Origin: Eledone cirrhosa
Lineage: Eukaryota
Length of the DNA: 64,000 nucleotides
Direction of reading: 5' to 3'
Assembly: GCA_964016885.1 (NCBI GenBank)
Contig: OZ024759.1
Coordinates: 14,322,001 to 14,386,000 of the forward strand
Numbering within the stretch: position 1 is the first letter of the stretch; every line of letters begins with the position of its first letter. The translations under genes and the position numbers were made by a program. A model generated the notes under the pieces. It searched no databases, had not been told where the DNA came from, and saw nothing but the letters and a program-made list of their open reading frames with translations. Positions 8,835 through 59,790 of this stretch are shown in pieces.

Positions 8835-8985
8835 TGTTTCTGATGAAAACTGTAAGATGGATTTGTTTGCTCAAGGTTAATGATATGGAGTTACATAACT
8901 ACTATCGATTAGTCAATTTATCAATATCATCAATATTATCAATATTATCATAGTTCATACCACCTTTTGAAACGATCTTAAAACA
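8835..8985 (+). ncRNA. Hammerhead-like motif with a very long (~120 nt) stem II domain
   Basis: tgttt-CTGATGA-(~120 nt)-GAA-acgatctt-a-aaaca. Related GAAACGATCG motifs occur at 45848 (+) and 47470-47604 (-). Confidence 0.45.
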
Positions 8986-10370
8986 CGAATTAATTAAGCA
9001 CTAAACCTATTACCATAGGTCATAAGTGGATGGTGGCTAGGCATTCCACAGACACATGTACCCTTAACATTTTTCTGAGCGATATTCGCCGAGACATAGT
9101 GCGTGCCCTGACTGGCCGTTTGAATTACAGAGACAACTCATAAAGCAGCGCAAAACAAAGTGCCTTGTTCCAGGACACATCGCACCACCGGGCCGCATTC
9201 AGCCCTTTACAAGCACACCTGAAGCCCGTACAAAGGTCTTTACAGCGTGAGCATGTTTTATCTTCGTAATATGAAAAAAAACAAAAAATGTGTTTTAATG
9301 TGTGCAATTAGTTGTCATGTGTGGCCCTCAGACAATACATATGTCACCCATGTGCCCACCCCCCGGGGGACACTCAGTTTGACATGCCTGCTTTACGGTG
9401 TTTGTCCCACTTCGTTGTGTGCTCTGAGTTCAAATCCCGCCGGGGTCCACTTTGCCTTTCATCCTTTCCAGGTCGATACACAAAGTACCAGTCCAGTACC
9501 AGTACCAATAATAACTTTAACAACAGTCAAAACAACAACGACTACTATACTACTGCTGCTGCTGCTGCTTCTGCTGTTGCTGCTACTGCTACTACTAAAA
9601 CTACTACTACTACTACTACTACTACTACTACTACTACTACTACTACTACGAGTGCAACAATGCATCAGTAAAAACAACAACGCCACCGCCGCCACCATCA
9701 CCACCACCACCACCAACAACAACAACAGCCACAACAATAGAAACAACAAAATGCCCATAGCCACAACAGTAAAACACCACCACCACCACCACCACCACCA
9801 TCACTACCGCCACTACCACCAGTACTATCACTACCACCACCACTACCACCACTACTACCATCACCACCACCACCACTACCACCACCACCAACACTACCAC
9901 CACCACCATCACCACCACCAACACCACCAACACCAACACCACCACCAACACCACCAACACCAACACCACCACCATACCCACCACCATAGCCACATCAACA
10001 ACACCACCACCACCAACCACTACCACCACCACTACCACCACTACCACCACTACCAGCCACCACTACGATCACTACCACCACCACCACCATCACCACCACT
10101 AGGATCACTACCACCAACACCACCACCACTATAACCACAGCAACAACCTCAGCAAGGCACCAGCACCACTACCACCTCTACCATCACCAACAAGACACCA
10201 CCACTAGGAACAGTGGAGCGGTGCTGTGCGGCTTATCCTTCGTAGGTGACATTTTGTAATAATTTTCTGGTGAATGGTTTTACCATTGACTTGTTGAGCT
10301 GTCAATTGGCTGTGACGGACACCCTCCACTGCACCTGACCAACACCGAACGAATTAAAACCTTTCTTTCT

Positions 10371-11184
10371 TTACTAAAATAATTGTTTCTACTTTTTGGC
10401 ACAAGGCCAGCAATTATCTCAGTGCATTACTGATACTTTATTTTATCGACCCCATAAGAATGAAATACAAAGTTAACGTCGGCGGGATTTGAACTCAGAA
10501 TGGCAAGGGCCGTAACTCTATGCATCAAAGCATGGCGTCCGACCCTCTACCGATACTGCCAATCCACCGCCTTACTAAAATAATTGTTTTTACTTTTGGC
10601 ACAAGGCCAGCAATTATCTCAGTGCATTACTGGTACTTTATTTTATCGACCCCATAAGGATGAAATGCAAAGTTAACCTCGGCGGGATTTGAACTCAGAA
10701 TGGCAAGGGCCGTAACTCTATGCATCAAAGCATGGCGTCCGACCCTCTACCGATACTGCCAATCCACCGCCTTACTAAAATAATTGTTTTTACTTTTGGC
10801 ACAAGGCCAGCAATTATCTCAGTGCATTACTGGTACTTTATTTTATCGACCCCATAAGGATGAAATGCAAAGTTAACCTCGGCGGGATTTGAACTCAGAA
10901 TGGCAAGGGCCGTAACTCTATGCATCAAAGCATGGCGTCCGACCCTCTACCGATACTGCCAATCCACCGCCTTACTAAAATAATTGTTTTTACTTTTGGC
11001 ACAAGGCCAGCAATTATCTCAGTGCATTACTGGTACTTTATTTTATCGACCCCATAAGGATGAAATGCAAAGTTAACCTCGGCGGGATTTGAACTCAGAA
11101 TGGCAAGGGCCGTAACTCTATGCATCAAAGCATGGCGTCCGACCCTCTGCCGATACTGCCAATCCACCGCCTTACTAAAATAAT
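10371..11184 (-). mobile_element. Tandem array of four near-identical tRNA-derived SINEs, 200-bp period
   Basis: The unit carries the B-box gagttcaaatcccgcc (reverse strand) and the central domain ttcatccttatggggtcgataaaataaagtaccag. Units are separated and flanked by ttactaaaataat. Confidence 0.9.
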
Positions 11185-11279
11185 GAAACCTTTGGCATTT
11201 TCAGGTTTTTCATATCTATCTTCCCTCACTCTCTTTCTTAAAACCTCCCTACGTAAAATGTGTTAGTATGTACGTGTAT

Positions 11280-11392
11280 ACGTGACCTAGTGGCTATTAT
11301 GCCTGATTCACGGCCACAATTTGTGGGTCCGATTTCTGGACTAGGAGGCGCGTTGTATCCTTGAGCAAAATACTTTATTTCACGTCGCTCCT
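11280..11392 (+). mobile_element. Diverged tRNA-derived SINE head (second family)
   Basis: A-box-like cgtgacctagtgg and the block ccttgagcaaaatactttatttcacgt are shared with 58764-58965. Confidence 0.6.
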
Positions 11393-11534
11393 ATATTGTT
11401 GTCTGTGTGTGTATGTGTGTGAGTGTATGTGTATGTGTGTCAGTGTATGTGTGTGTGTGTGTGTGTGAGTGTGTGTAAGTGTGTGTGTGTGTGTATGTAT
11501 GTGTAAATGTGTGTGTGTGTGTGTGTGTGGTTGA

Positions 11535-11688
11535 TTGACAGTATCGACAGAGCGTCAGACACCATGCTTTGCAGCATAGAGTTATGGCACTTTTCGTTCT
11601 GAGTTCAAATTACGGGGTCGATAAAATAAAGTACCAGTAATGCACTGGGGCAATTGCTGGTCTTGTGCCAAAATTAGAAACAATTATT
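11535..11688 (+). mobile_element. tRNA-derived SINE (family 1, internally deleted)
   Basis: Matches the 29481 copy: ctgagttcaaat...ggggtcgataaaataaagtaccag. Confidence 0.8.
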
Positions 11689-11734
11689 AACCCTTTCGTC
11701 TGGAAACGGCTACCCTACTCCTACCCTAATATGA

Positions 11735-57067: not shown

Positions 57068-57089
57068 CATACATACATGCATACATATA

Positions 57090-57280
57090 TATCATCATCA
57101 TGCTCATCATCATCATCATCATCACCATCTTTTAACGTCTGTCTTCCACGCTAGCATGGGTTAGACGGGAATTTTCCCACTTGAGTCAAGATTGATCGAG
57201 TGACCGTGTTTCACTCGTATAGGACTATACCTGGCAGGTTTTCTACGGCTGGATACCCTTCCTAATACCAACCACATTTA
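57090..57280 (-). mobile_element. SINE 3' part with an RTE-type tail and (GAT)n
   Basis: Reverse strand: ttaggaagggtatccagccgtagaaa...aacccatgctagcgtggaagacagacgttaaaa-(gat)n. Confidence 0.65.
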
Positions 57281-58610
57281 CACACACACACACACACACA
57301 CACACACACACACACACACACACACACACACACATATATATATATATATATGTGTGTGTGTGTGTGTGTATGTGTGTGTTTGTGTGTGTGTGTAATTTTT
57401 GATGATTTAGTAAGTGTTAAAGAATAGAAACTAAGGATAAAATAAAAAATATATTTAAAAAACCGGGGCCCCCGAGGAAGGGCTGTGCAGCGAGTATCGC
57501 CTTAGAGAGAGAAATGGAGAGAGGGAGAGAGATGGGGAGAGAAAAGATGGAGAAAGAATGAGTGTGTGTGTGTAGGTATGTGTGTATGTGTGTCTGTGTG
57601 TGTGTGTATGTGTGTGTGTATGTGTGTATTTTTGTGTATATGTGTGTGAACGTGTGTGTGTATGTGTGTATTTTTGTGTATATGTGTGTGAACGTGTGTG
57701 TGTATGTGTGTATGTGTGTGTATGAGGAAAAAATAAAAAGAAGAAAATACACAAGAAAGGAAGAAAGCGGGACAGAAGGAATTTGTCTTCGGTCGATCTA
57801 TTTATGATCATCTGTGTTGCCTTCTTCCAAAAAACAAAACCAAAATAAAAAACAAAATGGATGCTATTCTAAAGCGGGGCGGTTACAATTTATAACGTCT
57901 GCCATCAAATAAGCAGACGACTGATTTGAAAGGCGGGAAAAATAGTGTTAGAAGAAGAGAGGCGTATATAATAGACGCACATAATATGAATTTAAGTTGT
58001 AGGGAGTTTCTTAACATAAACAGGACTATTTCTTTTACAAACTCCTTCATTCCATCTCCGGTTCTCTTTTCATCCTTTGCCTTCTTTCTCTAGAACTCTT
58101 TCATTTCTTTCCTTCTTCCTTCCTTTCTTTCTTTCTTTCTTTCTTTCTTTCTTTCTTTCTTTCTTTCTTTCTTTCTTCTTTGTTTGTTTGTTTTTTTTTT
58201 GTTTTTTTTGGGGGTTTTTTGTTTCTTTCTTTCTCTTTCATTCTTCCCTTTTCTCCTTTTTCCTGTTTCGTTATTTCTTTGTCTTCTATACCCCTCTCTC
58301 TGTCTCCCCCTTCTCTCTCTCCCCGCAGACACCACACATATATACGTTTCGAAACCGGATGTTACGCAGCCTACCGACGGTAGCTGAAAAAGCGAATATT
58401 GTTTTCCGTTTATCTGAGTCTCTTATGTGTTCTTGTCCGCGCTGTATTAATTTAACTCTCTCTCTCTATATATATATATGTAGGCACAGGCATTTATTTA
58501 TATATAAGAGATGGTGAAATGAACCAGCCTGCAATTTCTCCAATTTATTCCCTTTCTACTCCTGCTCATTTTCCTCTATCTTTCTATTTCTTCTTTGATT
58601 TCTCATTGTA

Positions 58611-58646
58611 TATTCTGATGAAGGTCTAGCGATCGAAACGTTAACA
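58611..58646 (+). ncRNA. Minimal hammerhead motif in a diverged pLTR (weak stem I)
   Basis: CTGATGA-a-ggtc-tagc-gatc-GAA-acgt-t-aac. Stem II shows a compensatory change relative to ggac/gtcc. Confidence 0.65.
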
Positions 58647-58763
58647 CTATTTCTATGTGTGAAACTAATAAGTGGGAAATTAATATATATATCTTAATTG
58701 AATTTCATCGTTTGTTGTGATTTTTGGTATACCTTTCACACACACACACACACATATATATAG

Positions 58764-58965
58764 TGGAGGAACGTGGCTTAGTGGTAAGGGTGTTCGAAAT
58801 ACAATTATAATGTCGTGGGTTCGATTCCTGGGTAGCGTGTTCTTGAGCAAAACAGTTCATTTCACGTTGCTTCAATATACTCAGTTGAAAATGAGTTTAA
58901 CCCTGCGATGAACTGGTGTCCTGTCCAGGGAGGAGTCTTGTACTCTCAGTTGCTTCACGCCATCA
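58764..58965 (+). mobile_element. tRNA-derived SINE (family 2)
   Basis: A-box tggcttagtgg, B-box ggttcgattcc and central aaccctgcgatgaactggtgtcctgtccaggg. Confidence 0.8.
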
Positions 58966-59790
58966 GATCAATAATGGAGTCGGATCTATAACTTCTATGA
59001 GTCACCTTCAGCCAATCCTCTGCGAAACGCGCGTAACAGGTCGACACACAATAAAAAAATAAATACAAGTAAACGAAACTTCATCATTTCATCCTTGTTC
59101 TTCTTTATATATATATATATATATATATATATTTCGTTTCTGAATTTGTTTAGCAAGATTCTTTATCTGAAAACGTGCGTTGAAACCGATATTGTTATAA
59201 TGATATACACGTATATACATACATATATATATATATATATATATATATATATATATATATATATATATATATATATATATATACGTATATATCATTATTG
59301 AGTAAAATGACAGGCGGCTCGACTGGTGAAATTCCTTCAAAGATTTATTTCGGCAAACACCATGTACGCTTCAGTGGCCAGGTTACGTAAGATCATGGTG
59401 ACATCATCAGGTGTATATTGCATAATAGTTATATAATAAAGGAATAAGGGTAAACACAATCCAAGAGGCTATAAGGAGAGAAAGCACAGAACAAAAATGA
59501 TTTTGACTCGAAGGCGATCAAGAGGGCCAGTTGTTGACAGTTTGACTGACCGCCATTAAGATTCAACATCAAAGATAGATGAGTTGCATAACGTCGAGTG
59601 CTTTTCGTAATATTACACCATGATTAACTATACAGAATAACCAGTTCTATCCAATGATGAACCACCAAACTTAAAAGCAACATATTTCCCGTAATCGAAG
59701 ACTTACTCTTCCCCTAAAATAAGTCTCCAATATCTGCCATGCGTCCTGGGGGCCGAAGGTTGTTTATTATTTTTTTTATTATATATATAT

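What the first reader, a model, noticed from the sequence alone, without database searches (positions are those of the whole stretch)
8835..59105. Hammerhead-ribozyme zoo: ~15 near-complete motifs from ~9-10 families in short non-coding elements in (TA)n
Seen: type I HHR folds (stem I-CUGANGA-stem II-GAA-stem III-UH-stem I) at 14033, 15175, 18620, 22848, 23162, 25722, 25999/26186, 42021, 47470, 47659, 56494/56547, 56946, 58611 and 8835. Halves or degenerate copies lie at 13689, 26920, 37795, 41103, 45848, 47852, 50040 and 59024. Only one (15175) is still attached to a Penelope GIY-YIG remnant; the rest are 100-400-bp non-coding units beside microsatellites. Established: Penelope-like pLTRs and retrozymes carry type I HHRs. 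Inference: this genome hosts a large, probably uncatalogued radiation of ribozyme-bearing PLE-derived mini-elements that target TA microsatellites, at roughly one motif per 3-4 kb here.
Basis: partly seen in the sequence, partly recalled or inferred. Interest (0 to 1): 0.78.

Follow-up and report, generated by a model that had tools for sequence, protein, structure and literature searches.

The report
Hammerhead ribozymes in Penelope-type retroelement tails
This stretch of an animal-type genome holds many real hammerhead (self-cutting RNA) motifs that sit in the tail ends of Penelope-like jumping genes and their short non-coding hangers-on inserted in TA/CA repeats, a known kind of arrangement that is unusually dense and varied here and whose cutting activity is predicted, not shown.

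Summary
The motifs are real. A type I hammerhead descriptor finds 10 loci in the window against 0.02 in dinucleotide shuffles, at most 1 for each of 539 permuted decoy cores on the real sequence, and 0 in the reversed window.

- 9 are descriptor-complete.
- 4 are one or two changes away.
- 3 fail (8835, 25722, 47470).

No Rfam hammerhead model detects any of them.

The motifs lie in 3' parts of two coding Penelope-like element (PLE) lineages (RT plus C-terminal GIY-YIG) and of at least three short non-coding families (about 390-520 nt). All show the PLE insertion signature: variable 5' truncation, inverted 5'-truncated partner, optional one-sided tail, and (TA)n/(CA)n flanks.

In a random 400-kb sample, 21 further hammerheads appear (decoy mean 0.2). 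That is about 1 per 19 kb, or roughly 67,000-270,000 genome-wide. Window and sample together hold 16 families.

All of this matches published accounts (Cervera & de la Peña 2014, 2020; Craig et al. 2021; Li et al. 2026). It is therefore new members of a known kind, notable for density and diversity. Cleavage and expression remain untested, because no RNA runs were available. This scan found the same pattern before on another genome (e1-7882047).

The parts
14456..14692 (+). Remnant of the GIY-YIG endonuclease ORF of a 5'-truncated Penelope-like element (family F1).
   Evidence: 4,845 first-look genomic relatives; the 149 other matches are 82-91% identical. The EN block of sister copy L007 has 3,556 relatives at E<=0.001. 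All 8 long ones tested carry RVT_1, and 7 of 8 have a C-terminal GIY-YIG hit. Pfam itself does not recognise the window ORF.
14948..15314 (+). F1 3' UTR. Min-hammerhead at 15175-15210, with an extra A after A9, helix II GGAC/GUCC and helix III palindrome ACGU; predicted cut after U15206. The 3' end abuts (CA)n.
   Evidence: Descriptor hit. Same layout in L007, where the hammerhead lies about 120 nt before a 3' end that abuts (TA)n. Repeat copies within the window.
13828..14100 (+). F2 element: one-sided tail (about 13828-13895), inverted 5'-truncated copy (13889-13940), then a forward copy with a monomeric hammerhead at 14033-14083. Predicted cut after A14077. (TA)n/(CA)n on both sides.
   Evidence: The MFE fold equals the hammerhead three-way junction. 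At least 1,441 first-look genomic candidates. 20 genomic copies show variable 5' truncation (-11 to about -390) and an optional tail.
13687..13790 (+). F3 copy truncated at the 5' edge of its hammerhead. The descriptor parse here is weak.
   Evidence: 86.6% identical to 23215-23103. Parsed by eye.
18500..18854 (.). F7 inverted pair. Complete min-hammerhead on the minus strand at 18620-18658 (helix III palindrome AGUACU; predicted cut after U18625). The plus-strand copy (core at 18737) has lost 26 nt, including the cleavage site.
   Evidence: Co-folds as a double hammerhead with a dimer gain of -8.0 kcal/mol. A second copy of the family lies in random stretch L105.
22631..23107 (+). F4 element: 66-nt tail (22631-22696), inverted 5'-truncated arm (to 22841), then a forward copy truncated at 22839 with a monomeric hammerhead at 22848-22929. 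Predicted cut after C22921. (TA)n on both sides.
   Evidence: The MFE fold equals the hammerhead. The full unit runs from -192 to +258 relative to the hammerhead start (about 450 nt) plus an optional 66-nt tail. Partial head-to-tail tandems occur in 10 of 28 loci. At least 422 candidates for the hammerhead region and at least 916 for the tail.
23103..23220 (-). F3 copy with a complete min-hammerhead at 23162-23220 (helix III palindrome AUAUAUAU; predicted cut after A23169). The 3' end abuts (TA)7.
   Evidence: At least 1,053 candidates. 17 of 19 fetched copies keep CUGAUGA, and upstream similarity reaches at most about 275 nt.
25966..26382 (.). F5 symmetric inverted pair. Hammerheads at 25999-26069(-) and 26186-26256(+) (helix III palindrome AUGCGCAU; predicted cuts after A26007 and A26248). 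86-nt one-sided tail at 26297-26382. (TA)n on both sides.
   Evidence: Double-hammerhead co-fold with a gain of -13.3 kcal/mol. At least 270 candidates, with inverted-pair spacing of 57-371 bp among loci. A longer copy (L183) has an RT-like ORF and a weak GIY-YIG hit upstream.
42021..42142 (+). F3 copy with a near-complete hammerhead (core at 42028). The helix III palindrome is broken at one position (AUAUGUAU).
   Evidence: 85% identical to 23220-23103. Parsed.
47624..47792 (-). F1 3' UTR copy. Hammerhead core at 47688, with a 1-nt deletion after ACGU that disrupts helix I.
   Evidence: 93% identical to 15075-15244. Sequence.
56409..56612 (.). F2 inverted pair with tail (56409-56476). Hammerheads at 56493-56543(-) and 56545-56597(+). 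U.U at 10.1/11.1, as in all 20 genomic copies examined.
   Evidence: The monomer MFE of this copy is NOT the hammerhead fold.
56707..57085 (+). F1 3' UTR copy. Hammerhead core at 56950, with helix III ACGU changed to AUGU.
   Evidence: 83.7% identical to 14948-15314. Alignment A2.
58598..58754 (+). Divergent F1-like copy. Hammerhead core at 58615, with helix II GGUC/GAUC (compensatory relative to GGAC/GUCC) and helix I only 2 bp.
   Evidence: 71% identical; one double compensatory change, and helix II paired in 100% of cells.
37672..37852 (-). Decayed F1 copy (core reads CUGGUGA).
   Evidence: 80% identical to 15156-15322. Sequence.
41030..41145 (.). Inverted pair of 3' halves of another family: GAA, a 5-bp helix III with a palindromic loop, then C. 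The core box is missing through 5' truncation. A decayed relative lies at about 47852, and another copy at 59791-60022.
45830..45875 (+). Decayed hammerhead: core CUGAGUA (G8 changed to U), 5-bp helix II, GAA, palindrome ACGAUCGU, A. The sequence at about 47470(-) is a more decayed relative.
   Evidence: Sequence, parsed by eye.
26841..26975 (.). Half motif of a further family. GAAACGCGCGUA reads on the minus strand and CUGAGGA on the plus strand, so there is no complete hammerhead on either strand. A relative lies at 58990-59132.

Best explanation
The window holds real type I hammerhead ribozyme motifs that belong to the 3' parts of Penelope-like retrotransposons (PLEs) and of short non-coding elements inserted in the PLE manner into (TA)n/(CA)n microsatellites; these ribozymes likely cut read-through or multimeric transcripts into unit-length RNA.

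SHOWN
- The motifs are present far above chance.
- Window and sample together hold 16 families, and the stems covary between related families.
- Two families are linked to RT + GIY-YIG coding elements.
- Every family examined carries the PLE insertion signature: variable 5' truncation, an inverted 5'-truncated partner, an optional family-specific tail on one side, and microsatellite flanks.

INFERRED
- Families with a stable helix III (14033 and 22848 types) would cut as single molecules.
- Families whose helix III is a 4-8 nt palindrome (15175, 18620, 23162 and 26186 types) would cut only when two copies pair as a double hammerhead.
- The processed RNA, possibly circularised, would then be copied by a PLE reverse transcriptase at a nick made by its GIY-YIG endonuclease in a microsatellite.
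- The non-coding families would borrow these proteins in trans.
For: MOTIFS AGAINST CHANCE
- 10 loci against 0.02 in shuffles.
- Of 540 core permutations, only the true core gives 10; the rest give 0 or 1. The reversed window gives 0.
- The random 400-kb sample has 21 loci, against a decoy mean of 0.2 and maximum of 3.

FEATURES THE DESCRIPTOR DOES NOT IMPOSE (25 distinct sequences)
- N7 = U in 21.
- C15.2-G16.2 in 17.
- Perfectly palindromic helix III in 15.
- Extra nucleotide after A9 in 10.
The last two are hallmarks of PLE min-HHRs (PMC4209133).

FOLDS
- The MFE of the 14033 and 22848 copies is the hammerhead junction.
- The 18620 and 26186 types co-fold as double hammerheads.

COVARIATION
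- Helix II GGAC/GUCC against GGUC/GAUC. In A2, 94% of cells pair, against 16-44% in slid controls.
- Sister families F3 and F5 share helix I, both core boxes and the tail, but have helix III AUAUAUAU against AUGCGCAU. Both are palindromes.

PLE LINK
- for F1.
- for F5.

INSERTION STYLE
-, matching the description in PMC8557442.

MICROSATELLITES
- 26 of 31 hammerheads lie within 400 nt upstream of a microsatellite, against 42% for random positions. 0 of 2,000 permutations reach this.

COPY GRADIENT
- The F4 tail has at least 916 candidates against at least 422 for its hammerhead region, the 3' bias expected after 5' truncation.
Against: - No Rfam hammerhead model matches any locus, even at E<=10 on 2,985 nt.
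- Fold energies are not unusual (z = -1.1 and -0.6).
- The F2 family majority has U.U at 10.1/11.1 and only a 3-bp helix II (20 of 20 genomic copies). The 56546 copy's MFE is not the hammerhead. The most abundant family may therefore cut poorly.
- The 15175 and 23162 co-folds are not the double hammerhead.
- Within family F1 the hammerhead is no better conserved than its flanks (0.938 against 0.929).
- The A2 covariation score is reached by 24 of 500 shuffles.
- The stems pair by construction of the descriptor.
- No RNA data were available, so cleavage, expression and circles are untested.
- Metazoan PLE min-HHRs cleave poorly in vitro even as dimers (PMC4209133), and HHR-less PLEs proliferate well (PMC8557442).
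- No autonomous partner was identified for F2 or F4.
Confidence: 0.8

Rival explanations
1. At least some of the non-coding families are non-LTR retrozymes in the strict sense. Tandem copies would be transcribed, cut at two hammerheads and ligated to small circular RNAs, and the circles would serve as rolling-circle templates for a PLE reverse transcriptase. This is a variant of the main reading, not its opposite.
For: - Random stretch L120 holds 3.4 head-to-tail copies of a 466-bp hammerhead-bearing unit at 99% identity next to (TA)n, plus inverted copies.
- 10 of 28 F4 loci have a partial upstream copy joined through the tail.
- Unit sizes of about 390-520 nt fall in the published 51-972 bp range (10.64898/2026.07.22.740005, passages).
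- Animal retrozymes are proposed to be PLE derivatives (same preprint; PMC7229834).
Against: - In the window itself no family is in direct tandem. Copies are single or inverted pairs.
- Variable 5' truncation with fixed 3' ends fits a linear template at least as well as a circle.
- No RNA runs were available to look for circles.
Confidence: 0.3
2. The motifs are structurally real but functionally idle. They would be passengers or relics carried along in PLE tails, contributing nothing to transposition and not cleaving in vivo.
For: - Craig et al. note that HHR-less Naiads outnumber HHR-bearing PLEs and that HHRs may 'simply parasitize PLEs' (PMC8557442).
- Metazoan min-HHRs have low in vitro activity (PMC4209133).
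- The F2 majority has a weak helix II.
- The hammerhead is not better conserved than its flanks within F1.
Against: - 16 sequence-unrelated families all keep the full core, helix geometry, U7 and C15.2-G16.2.
- Sister families keep helix III palindromic through four coordinated changes.
- Compensatory change in helix II.
These points argue for selection on the fold in the master copies.
Confidence: 0.15
3. The matches are chance look-alikes produced by AT-rich, palindrome-rich repeats and microsatellites.
For: - No Rfam hammerhead model hits.
- Many motifs lie in long inverted repeats, which supply stems for free.
- Helices I and III of the 23162 type are pure A/U.
Against: - The decoy-core test on the real sequence, which keeps every repeat and palindrome: 10 for the true core against at most 1 for each of 539 decoys.
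- The reversed window gives 0.
- The same result holds in independent random DNA: 21 against a mean of 0.2.
- Hallmarks not imposed by the descriptor.
Confidence: 0.02
4. The palindromic units are DNA foldback or MITE-type transposons moved by a transposase, and the hammerhead-like motifs are incidental.
For: Several units are long, nearly perfect inverted repeats (18500-18854, 25824-26447, 56471-56619).
Against: - The arms meet at variable truncation points (F5 pair spacing of 57-371 bp; F2 and F4).
- Single, non-palindromic copies are common.
- The outer (3') ends are fixed while the inner ends vary.
- An extra tail sits on one side only.
- Two families continue upstream into RT/GIY-YIG ORFs.
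All of these are retroelement traits, and specifically PLE traits (PMC8557442).
Confidence: 0.03

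Closest known systems
Minimal hammerheads (min-HHR) in the pseudo-LTRs of metazoan Penelope-like elements (Cervera & De la Peña 2014, PMC4209133; I read parts 1-2 of 4)
   Same: - Type I topology.
- Unpaired nucleotide between A9 and 10.1.
- Short palindromic helix III that implies dimer action.
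- 4-5 bp helix I.
- Many consensus families per genome.
- Mostly single copies near truncated PLEs.
- Dual copies on opposite strands 100-700 bp apart.
- Not found by standard models.
The F1, F3, F5 and F7 types fit this description.
   Different: - Here about 10 of 25 distinct motifs have a stable 3-8 bp helix III with a real loop (for example the 22848 type, 5 bp plus a 7-nt non-palindromic loop). They fold as monomers, a form that paper reports for PLEs of plants, fungi and protists rather than of animals.
- G10.1-C11.1 is present in only 9 of 25.
- Loop 2 is often long (20-38 nt).
- The density appears higher than the counts given there (2,000-9,000 per genome), but the descriptors differ.
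Non-LTR retrozymes of animals (Cervera & de la Peña 2020, PMC7229834, passages; Li, Clavereau & Pollet 2026 preprint 10.64898/2026.07.22.740005, abstract and passages)
   Same: - Short, AT-rich, non-coding repeats (hundreds of bp) that carry a type I hammerhead.
- They co-exist with PLEs and are proposed to derive from PLE pLTRs.
- Monomers, dimers and multimers all occur.
- The L120 array (466 bp x 3.4) and the F4 partial tandems fit.
   Different: - The window's copies are single or inverted, not direct tandems.
- The hammerheads lack the canonical short helix III in some families.
- Circular RNA is untested here.
- Microsatellite flanks are not a stated feature of retrozymes in the passages I read.
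PLE insertion architecture and microsatellite bias (Craig, Yushenova, Rodriguez & Arkhipova 2021, PMC8557442, passages)
   Same: - High 5' truncation.
- Partial tandems (pLTRs).
- An inverted 5'-truncated copy at the 5' end.
- A tail extension often present at one end only.
- Insertion bias to (TA)n/(CA)n.
- Hammerhead near the 3' end of canonical PLEs.
   Different: - The tails here are 66-86 nt rather than 30-40 bp.
- The (TA)n bias is described there mainly for the HHR-less Naiads and for Neptune. Here it holds for HHR-bearing families and their non-coding derivatives.
Double-hammerhead (dimer) cleavage of newt satellite and viroid-like RNAs, and of PLE hammerhead variants (Forster et al. 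1988 and Lünse, Weinberg & Breaker 2016/17; seen only as references 133 and 134 and as text in PMC6765202, passages. The Lünse paper is not held)
   Same: Palindromic helix III, so that two copies form an extended helix III between them. The co-folds of the 18620 and 26186 types give exactly this.
   Different: No cleavage data exist for these sequences. Here inverted, not tandem, neighbours are the commonest arrangement, and on one transcript an inverted neighbour would give an antisense copy, not a second ribozyme.

Membership tests
Hammerhead ribozyme, type I | Conserved core: C3 U4 G5 A6 N7 G8 A9 ... G12 A13 A14 ... A15.1-U16.1, and H17 not G. | tested here: met
   10 loci in the window and 21 in the 400-kb sample carry the full core in the right order. 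The count is specific to this core against 539 decoys.
Hammerhead ribozyme, type I | Three helices around the core, with helix I open (5' and 3' ends in helix I). | tested here: met
   Helix I 4-10 bp, helix II 3-11 bp, helix III 3-8 bp or a 4-10 nt perfect palindrome. The MFE equals this junction for the 14033 and 22848 copies.
Hammerhead ribozyme, type I | Match to the curated covariance models (Rfam Hammerhead_1 and related families). | tested here: not met
   No hammerhead family at gathering score, in the 150 rows shown of 613 at E<=10, or at E<=10 on 2,985 nt of slices around 20 candidates. PMC4209133 also needed a purpose-built descriptor for such variants.
Hammerhead ribozyme, type I | Site-specific self-cleavage after H17. 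| not testable with these tools
   No RNA runs are listed. The runs that were laid are contigs of unknown kind and cannot show ends.
Hammerhead ribozyme, type I | Tertiary contacts between helix I and loop 2 (canonical metazoan type I). | not tested
   No three-dimensional or comparative test was made. Loop 2 sizes vary from 4 to 38 nt.
min-HHR of metazoan PLEs | Unpaired nucleotide between A9 and 10.1. | tested here: met
   Present in 10 of 25 distinct motifs, including the F1, F2 (majority form) and F7 types. Absent in 15 of 25.
min-HHR of metazoan PLEs | Palindromic 15.2-16.2 / helix III that allows a dimer. | tested here: met
   15 of 25 have a perfect palindrome. Palindromy is kept between sister families (AUGCGCAU against AUAUAUAU). 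Double-hammerhead co-folds for 2 of the 4 palindromic types folded.
min-HHR of metazoan PLEs | Highly conserved G10.1-C11.1 pair. | tested here: inconclusive
   G-C in 9 of 25 and G-U in 5 of 25; the rest are A-U, U-A or C-G. The F2 majority has U.U, or a 3-bp helix.
Penelope-like elements (canonical, C-terminal EN+) | [quoted passage not shown] | tested here: met
   - F1 sister copy L007: RVT_1 at E=8e-5, below the cut-off. Pfam does not recognise the EN block.
- That EN block has 3,556 relatives. All 8 long ones tested (590-927 aa) carry RVT_1, and 7 of 8 have a GIY-YIG hit at E<=0.001 at the C-terminus, where the query aligns. Atlas lead to GIY-YIG, score 0.96.
- F5 copy L183: GIY-YIG at E=0.0018, below the cut-off; RT motifs seen by eye only.
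- The copies examined are frameshifted or truncated.
Penelope-like elements (canonical, C-terminal EN+) | Insertion architecture: 5' truncation, partial tandems (pLTR), inverted 5'-truncated copy, one-sided tail. | tested here: met
   F2, F4, F5 and F7 in the window and in genomic copies.
Penelope-like elements (canonical, C-terminal EN+) | Placement of the RT within the PLE clade (sister to telomerase RTs). | not tested
   No phylogeny was built and no named PLE reference sequences were at hand. The word-indexed protein searches returned nothing.
Non-LTR retrozymes | Non-coding unit of some hundreds of bp with a type I hammerhead, present as direct tandem repeats (at least two hammerheads). 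| tested here: inconclusive
   Met elsewhere in the genome (L120, 466 bp x 3.4; F4 partial tandems in 10 of 28 loci). Not met by any copy in the window, where copies are single or inverted.
Non-LTR retrozymes | Expression as small circular RNAs. | not testable with these tools
   No RNA holder is listed.

The most novel reading that the evidence does not exclude
This genome carries the densest and most varied hammerhead load yet described for an animal: on the order of 100,000 intact motifs (about 1 per 19 kb) in dozens of families.
- It includes PLE-dependent non-coding mini-elements whose type I hammerheads have a long, stable helix III and should cut as single molecules. For PLEs this form has been reported only outside animals, and the Rfam models do not see it.
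- Sister lineages that swap one helix III palindrome for another give natural genetic evidence that dimeric cleavage is selected in vivo.
- The set would make a natural mutational library of the hammerhead, and a system in which the long-open role of the ribozyme in PLE retrotransposition can be tested.
Probability: 0.3. Interest if true: 0.55.

Novelty: new member of a known kind. Interest (0 to 1): 0.35.

Why it matters
What hammerheads do for Penelope-like elements is still an open question. Published metazoan examples cleave poorly in vitro, and HHR-less PLEs thrive.

A genome that holds, side by side, coding PLEs, their non-coding derivatives, monomer-type and dimer-type hammerheads, and sister families that differ only in helix II and the helix III palindrome offers ready-made comparisons for cleavage assays and for retrotransposition reporters.

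It also shows practically that Rfam-based annotation misses this whole class. It further shows that a sizeable share of 'microsatellite-flanking' repeats in such genomes are PLE-type insertions.

Apart from that, the finding is an ordinary, already described kind of repeat landscape.

Tried and rejected
- **Rfam scans**. No hammerhead family was found. The E-value scan of the whole window was swamped by microsatellite hairpins that resemble miRNA precursors.
- **Pfam on the window.** 116 window ORFs gave no RT or GIY-YIG. The EN block alone at E<=10 gave nothing.
- **Word-indexed protein search with the EN block**, lengths 'longer' and 'near'. 61 and 85 candidates, none scoring E<=0.001.
- **Genome search with the 18620-type motif.** It returned nothing, not even the query itself, so it is uninformative. 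The family was later seen in L105.
- **C394 direct pair of 26186-type copies, 3.3 kb apart.** I suspected pLTRs of a full PLE, but they lie inside huge (TA)n arrays with no ORF.
- **My own early claim that the 22848 unit has a constant 5' end at 22839.** This was wrong. Loose ends and the upstream alignments show that the window copy is 5'-truncated.
- **Conservation of the hammerhead against its flanks within F1.** 40 rows: 37 genomic loci with enough of the segment, out of 49 examined, plus 3 window copies. Result 0.938 against 0.929, uninformative because the family is young.
- **U3-A8 core variant.** 3 hits with an AT-rich core, not convincing.
- **RNA evidence.** No RNA holder is listed. 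The three runs laid are contigs of unknown kind, at most one sample from one study, and cannot show ends, strands or circles.
- **Lünse et al.** The paper is not held.
- **Supplementary files.** I opened none. The supplementary figures S2-S5 of PMC4209133, which list arthropod and shrimp motifs, and the closed supplements of the 2026 preprint may already contain some of these families.

Full report
**Setting.** The window is C20:14,322,001-14,386,000 of a 2.996-Gb assembly with 1,796 contigs. I did not identify the organism. The window is extremely rich in microsatellites: perfect (TA) runs of at least 7 units cover 7.6% of it, against 4.1% of a random 400-kb sample of the same genome. Apart from transposon fragments, I found no recognisable protein-coding gene (116 ORFs scanned, only weak sub-threshold hits).

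Rfam finds nothing:
- At gathering score, the only match is a tRNA-like sequence.
- At E<=10 on the whole window there were 613 matches. The 150 rows shown are microsatellite hairpins resembling miRNA precursors and the like, and 463 rows were not shown.
- At E<=10 on 20 small slices (2,985 nt) cut around the candidates, there were 17 matches and none was a hammerhead.

I therefore wrote an explicit type I descriptor: helix I of at least 4 bp; CUGANGA; an optional unpaired nucleotide; helix II of at least 3 bp; GAA; A15.1; helix III either a hairpin of at least 3 bp or a perfect 4-12 nt palindrome; H17 not G.

| Test | Window | Control |
|---|---|---|
| Strict descriptor, monomeric loci | 3 | 0.11 per shuffle |
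| Strict descriptor, palindromic loci | 4 | 0.005 per shuffle |
| Relaxed descriptor | 10 | mean 0.02, maximum 1, in 200 dinucleotide shuffles |
| 540 core permutations on the real sequence | 10 for the true core | 518 decoys give 0, 21 give 1 |
| Reversed window | – | 0 |

Shuffling destroys the window's many palindromes, so the decoy-core test on the real sequence and the reversed window are the more telling controls. The signal is specific to the hammerhead core.

**2.
- Of the 16 'near-complete' positions, 9 are descriptor-complete: 14033, 15175, 18620(-), 22848, 23162(-), 25999(-), 26186, 56494(-) and 56547.
- Four are one or two changes away: 42021, 47659(-), 56946 and 58611.
- Three do not hold:
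  - 8835 has no GAA next to helix II.
  - 25722 has a helix II that does not close and G at 15.1.
  - 47470 has no CUGANGA at all, and is a decayed relative of the 45848 half.
- The tenth descriptor hit (13689) is a weak parse of a copy truncated at the edge of its hammerhead.
- The mirror copy at 18737(+) has lost 26 nt, including the cleavage site.
- Two further halves, at 22495(+) and 26731(-), were not listed.

**3. Do they look like working hammerheads?**

In favour:
- Folded alone, the 14033 and 22848 copies have the hammerhead three-way junction as their minimum-free-energy structure.
- The 18620 and 26186 types, whose helix III is a palindrome (AGUACU, AUGCGCAU), co-fold into the classical double hammerhead, with helices III and I formed between two molecules (dimer gains of -8.0 and -13.3 kcal/mol).
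- Among the 25 distinct motifs from the window and the random sample, several features that the descriptor does not impose match natural hammerheads: U at N7 in 21, C15.2-G16.2 in 17, a perfect palindrome as helix III in 15, and an extra nucleotide after A9 in 10. The last two are the hallmarks that Cervera and De la Peña give for PLE min-HHRs (PMC4209133).
- In an alignment of seven divergent PLE-type motifs, helix II is paired in all cells, with one double compensatory change (A-U to U-A). 94% of all cells pair, against 16-44% when the partners are slid.

Against:
- The covariation score in that alignment is modest (24 of 500 shuffles reach it).
- Fold energies are unremarkable (z = -1.1 and -0.6).
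- The 56546 copy's best fold is not the hammerhead, and the 15175 and 23162 co-folds are not the double hammerhead.
- All 20 genomic copies of the most abundant family have U.U at 10.1/11.1 with only a 3-bp helix II. The window copy's neat A-U pair is a private change.
- Within family F1, the hammerhead is no better conserved than its flanks (0.938 against 0.929 majority frequency, over 40 rows: 37 of 49 genomic loci examined plus 3 window copies).

**4. What the elements are**

*Family F1* (15175, 56946, 47659, 58611, 37795):
- It is the 3' UTR of a coding element.
- The ORF remnant at 14456-14692 has 4,845 first-look relatives in the genome. The 149 other matches are 82-91% identical, with open frames of up to 382 aa.
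- A longer copy, L007, shows RT fragments (RVT_1 at E=8e-5, below Pfam's cut-off) and a C-terminal block that Pfam does not recognise.
- That block has 3,556 relatives at E<=0.001 among 1.84 billion representatives.
- All 8 long relatives tested (590-927 aa) carry RVT_1 (4 above the cut-off). Seven of the 8 have a GIY-YIG hit at E<=0.001 (1 above the cut-off) at the C-terminus, where the query aligns.
- This is the canonical EN+ PLE layout.
- In L007 the same hammerhead lies about 120 nt before a 3' end that abuts (TA)n.

*Family F5* (25999/26186):
- It is likely the tail of a second, AT-rich PLE lineage.
- Locus L183 has a 447-aa ORF with RT motifs (seen by eye; Pfam silent), then a Cys-rich linker, then an ORF with a weak GIY-YIG hit (E=0.0018, 19 bits, against a cut-off of 22.6) upstream of the hammerhead.

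*Families F2, F4 and F3* are short and non-coding:

| Family | Type | Size and 5' ends among genomic copies | Candidates |
|---|---|---|---|
| F4 | 22848 | Unit from -192 to +258 relative to the hammerhead start, about 450 nt. Of 28 alignments, 14 start at -192, 4 more within 3 nt, and the remaining 10 between -178 and -9. | at least 422 |
| F2 | 14033/56547 | 5' ends from -11 to about -390 | at least 1,441 |
| F3 | 23162/42021/13689 | At most about 275 nt upstream | at least 1,053 |

*Shared insertion signature.* Every family examined shows:
- fixed 3' ends that abut (TA)n or (CA)n;
- variable 5' truncation;
- often an inverted 5'-truncated partner joined at the truncation point;
- an optional, family-specific tail of 66-86 nt on one side only.

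Supporting details:
- In F4 the tail also links partial head-to-tail tandems in 10 of 28 loci. The tail is about twice as abundant as the hammerhead region (at least 916 against at least 422 candidates), as expected after 5' truncation.
- F5 inverted pairs have spacings of 57-371 bp at different loci, so the truncations were largely independent events.
- This is the structure Craig et al. describe for PLE insertions, including the microsatellite bias (PMC8557442).
- Early on I wrongly took 22839 for a constant 5' end. Loose ends and the alignments corrected that.

*Sister families.* F3 and F5 share both strands of helix I, both core boxes and a homologous tail (…ACUCCAG…AAACUGU(A/C)GAGUGCUUC). 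They differ in helix II and in the helix III palindrome, AUAUAUAU against AUGCGCAU. Four coordinated changes that keep self-complementarity are what a helix formed between two copies would demand. A caveat is that AUAUAUAU could also have arisen from the (TA)n that these elements live in.

**5. Microsatellites.** Of 31 hammerheads (window plus sample), 26 have a perfect dinucleotide repeat of at least 14 bp within 400 nt downstream (median 162 nt). For random positions and strands in the same sequences the figure is 42% (median about 590 nt), and 0 of 2,000 permutations reach the observed fraction. Elements such as F4, F5 and the 56.5-kb F2 pair have (TA)n on both sides. This favours insertion into an existing repeat over creation of the repeat by the element.

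**6. The genome as a whole**
- I drew forty 10-kb stretches at random from 18 large contigs. They hold 21 descriptor-complete hammerheads in 10 of the 40 stretches, against a mean of 0.2 (maximum 3) for 60 decoy cores.
- That is 1 per 19 kb. It extrapolates to about 157,000 motifs (bootstrap 95% interval over stretches: 67,000-270,000). This is a crude figure from a small, clustered sample.
- The window, at 10 per 64 kb, is about three times denser.
- Clustering at 70% identity gives 16 families in 464 kb. Six are in the window, and four of those recur in the sample. The list is clearly far from complete.
- One stretch, L120, carries 3.4 tandem copies of a 466-bp hammerhead unit at 99% identity beside (TA)n, with inverted copies next to it. 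That is a retrozyme-style array.

**7. Comparison with what is known**
- Cervera and De la Peña (2014) reported min-HHRs in the pLTRs of all PLEs examined, and thousands per metazoan genome (about 2,000 + 1,300 in Schistosoma, about 4,000 in coelacanth, about 9,000 in Xenopus). These fall into many variable consensus families, mostly as single motifs near truncated PLEs, with dual copies on opposite strands. They include arthropods and shrimps, and show weak dimer-dependent cleavage in vitro (PMC4209133).
- Cervera and de la Peña (2020) defined animal non-LTR retrozymes: tandem units of about 150-450 bp, circular RNAs, up to 120,000 copies from two families in axolotl, and about 5,000 in mussel. 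They named PLEs as the likely mobilisers (PMC7229834).
- Li et al. (2026 preprint) found 57 retrozyme families in Xenopus frogs, 24 of them homologous to Repbase TEs (21 of the 22 TEs annotated as PLEs), matching at the PLE termini that correspond to pLTRs. They also found monomers spread evenly along chromosomes.
- What may go beyond the literature I read:
  - the density (roughly 14 times that of axolotl per base, though the descriptors are not comparable);
  - the number of families;
  - monomer-type hammerheads with long helix III in animal PLE-type elements;
  - the explicit tie between hammerhead-bearing non-coding elements and (TA)n.
- My two full-text searches found no paper making that last link for retrozymes. 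I did not open any supplements, and Dfam and Repbase were not available.

**8. Mechanism, and how sure.** That these are genuine hammerhead motifs in PLE tails and PLE-style non-coding elements inserted in microsatellites: about 0.8-0.9. That they actually cleave and thereby shape the transposition template: inferred, perhaps 0.5-0.6. The reasons for caution are the weak in vitro activity of published relatives, the weak helix II of F2, and the absence of any RNA data here.

**Verdict.** A well-supported but ordinary kind of finding: new members of a known kind, interest about 0.35.

Noticed in passing
window 24594-24840 (tRNA-like at 24674-24747, minus strand): A 247-bp near-perfect palindrome flanked by (TA)n has a tRNA-like sequence at its centre (Rfam tRNA 39.7 bits; ARAGORN tRNA-Ser GGA). 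It may be a tRNA-bearing element of the same insertion style. An earlier scan note (e1-7810660) describes a tRNA-carrying Penelope-type repeat in another genome.
   Followed up: partly
Each has a CUGA(G/C)GA core, one unpaired nucleotide, a 5-6 bp helix II and GAAAGA, but no recognisable helices I and III. They look related to each other.
   Followed up: no
L120:2285-3863 (G000:C3:204,294,812-204,296,390) and inverted copies to about 4500: A tandem array of a 466-bp unit (3.4 copies, 99% identity). Each unit carries an identical min-hammerhead (helix III palindrome ACUAGU). The array abuts a 536-bp (TA)n tract and is followed by two inverted copies. This is retrozyme-like.
   Followed up: partly
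L101, minus strand, core at 9131: A candidate hammerhead with the U3-A8 core covariant (UUGAAAA ... GAA), helix I of 10 bp and helix III of 9 bp. This core variant was reported for Schistosoma Cercyon PLEs. The two other hits with this AT-rich core look like chance.
   Followed up: no
window 10371-11184; relatives at 29475-29702, 36894-37014, 42282-42796, 53988-54173, 63415-63535: A 200-bp unit repeated four times in tandem at 98-99% identity, with dispersed partial copies across the window. It is unrelated to the hammerhead families.
   Followed up: no
window 8016-8447 (-) and 736-1314 (-): ORF fragments that look by eye like non-LTR retrotransposon reverse transcriptase and C-terminal parts (an 'FADD' motif). 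Pfam gave only a weak DUF6451 hit.
   Followed up: no
whole window: At permissive thresholds Rfam reports hundreds of 'miRNA precursor' matches (mir-297, mir-3149, mir-466 and others) that are simply (TA)n/(CA)n hairpins. These are an annotation trap in this genome.
   Followed up: yes
window 22631-22678: In the three contig runs, the outer part of the F4 tail has a summed k-mer depth of 56,000-140,000, against 800-4,200 over the hammerhead. That difference is far larger than the two-fold difference in genome candidates, so part of this tail may be shared with another, much more abundant repeat.
   Followed up: partly
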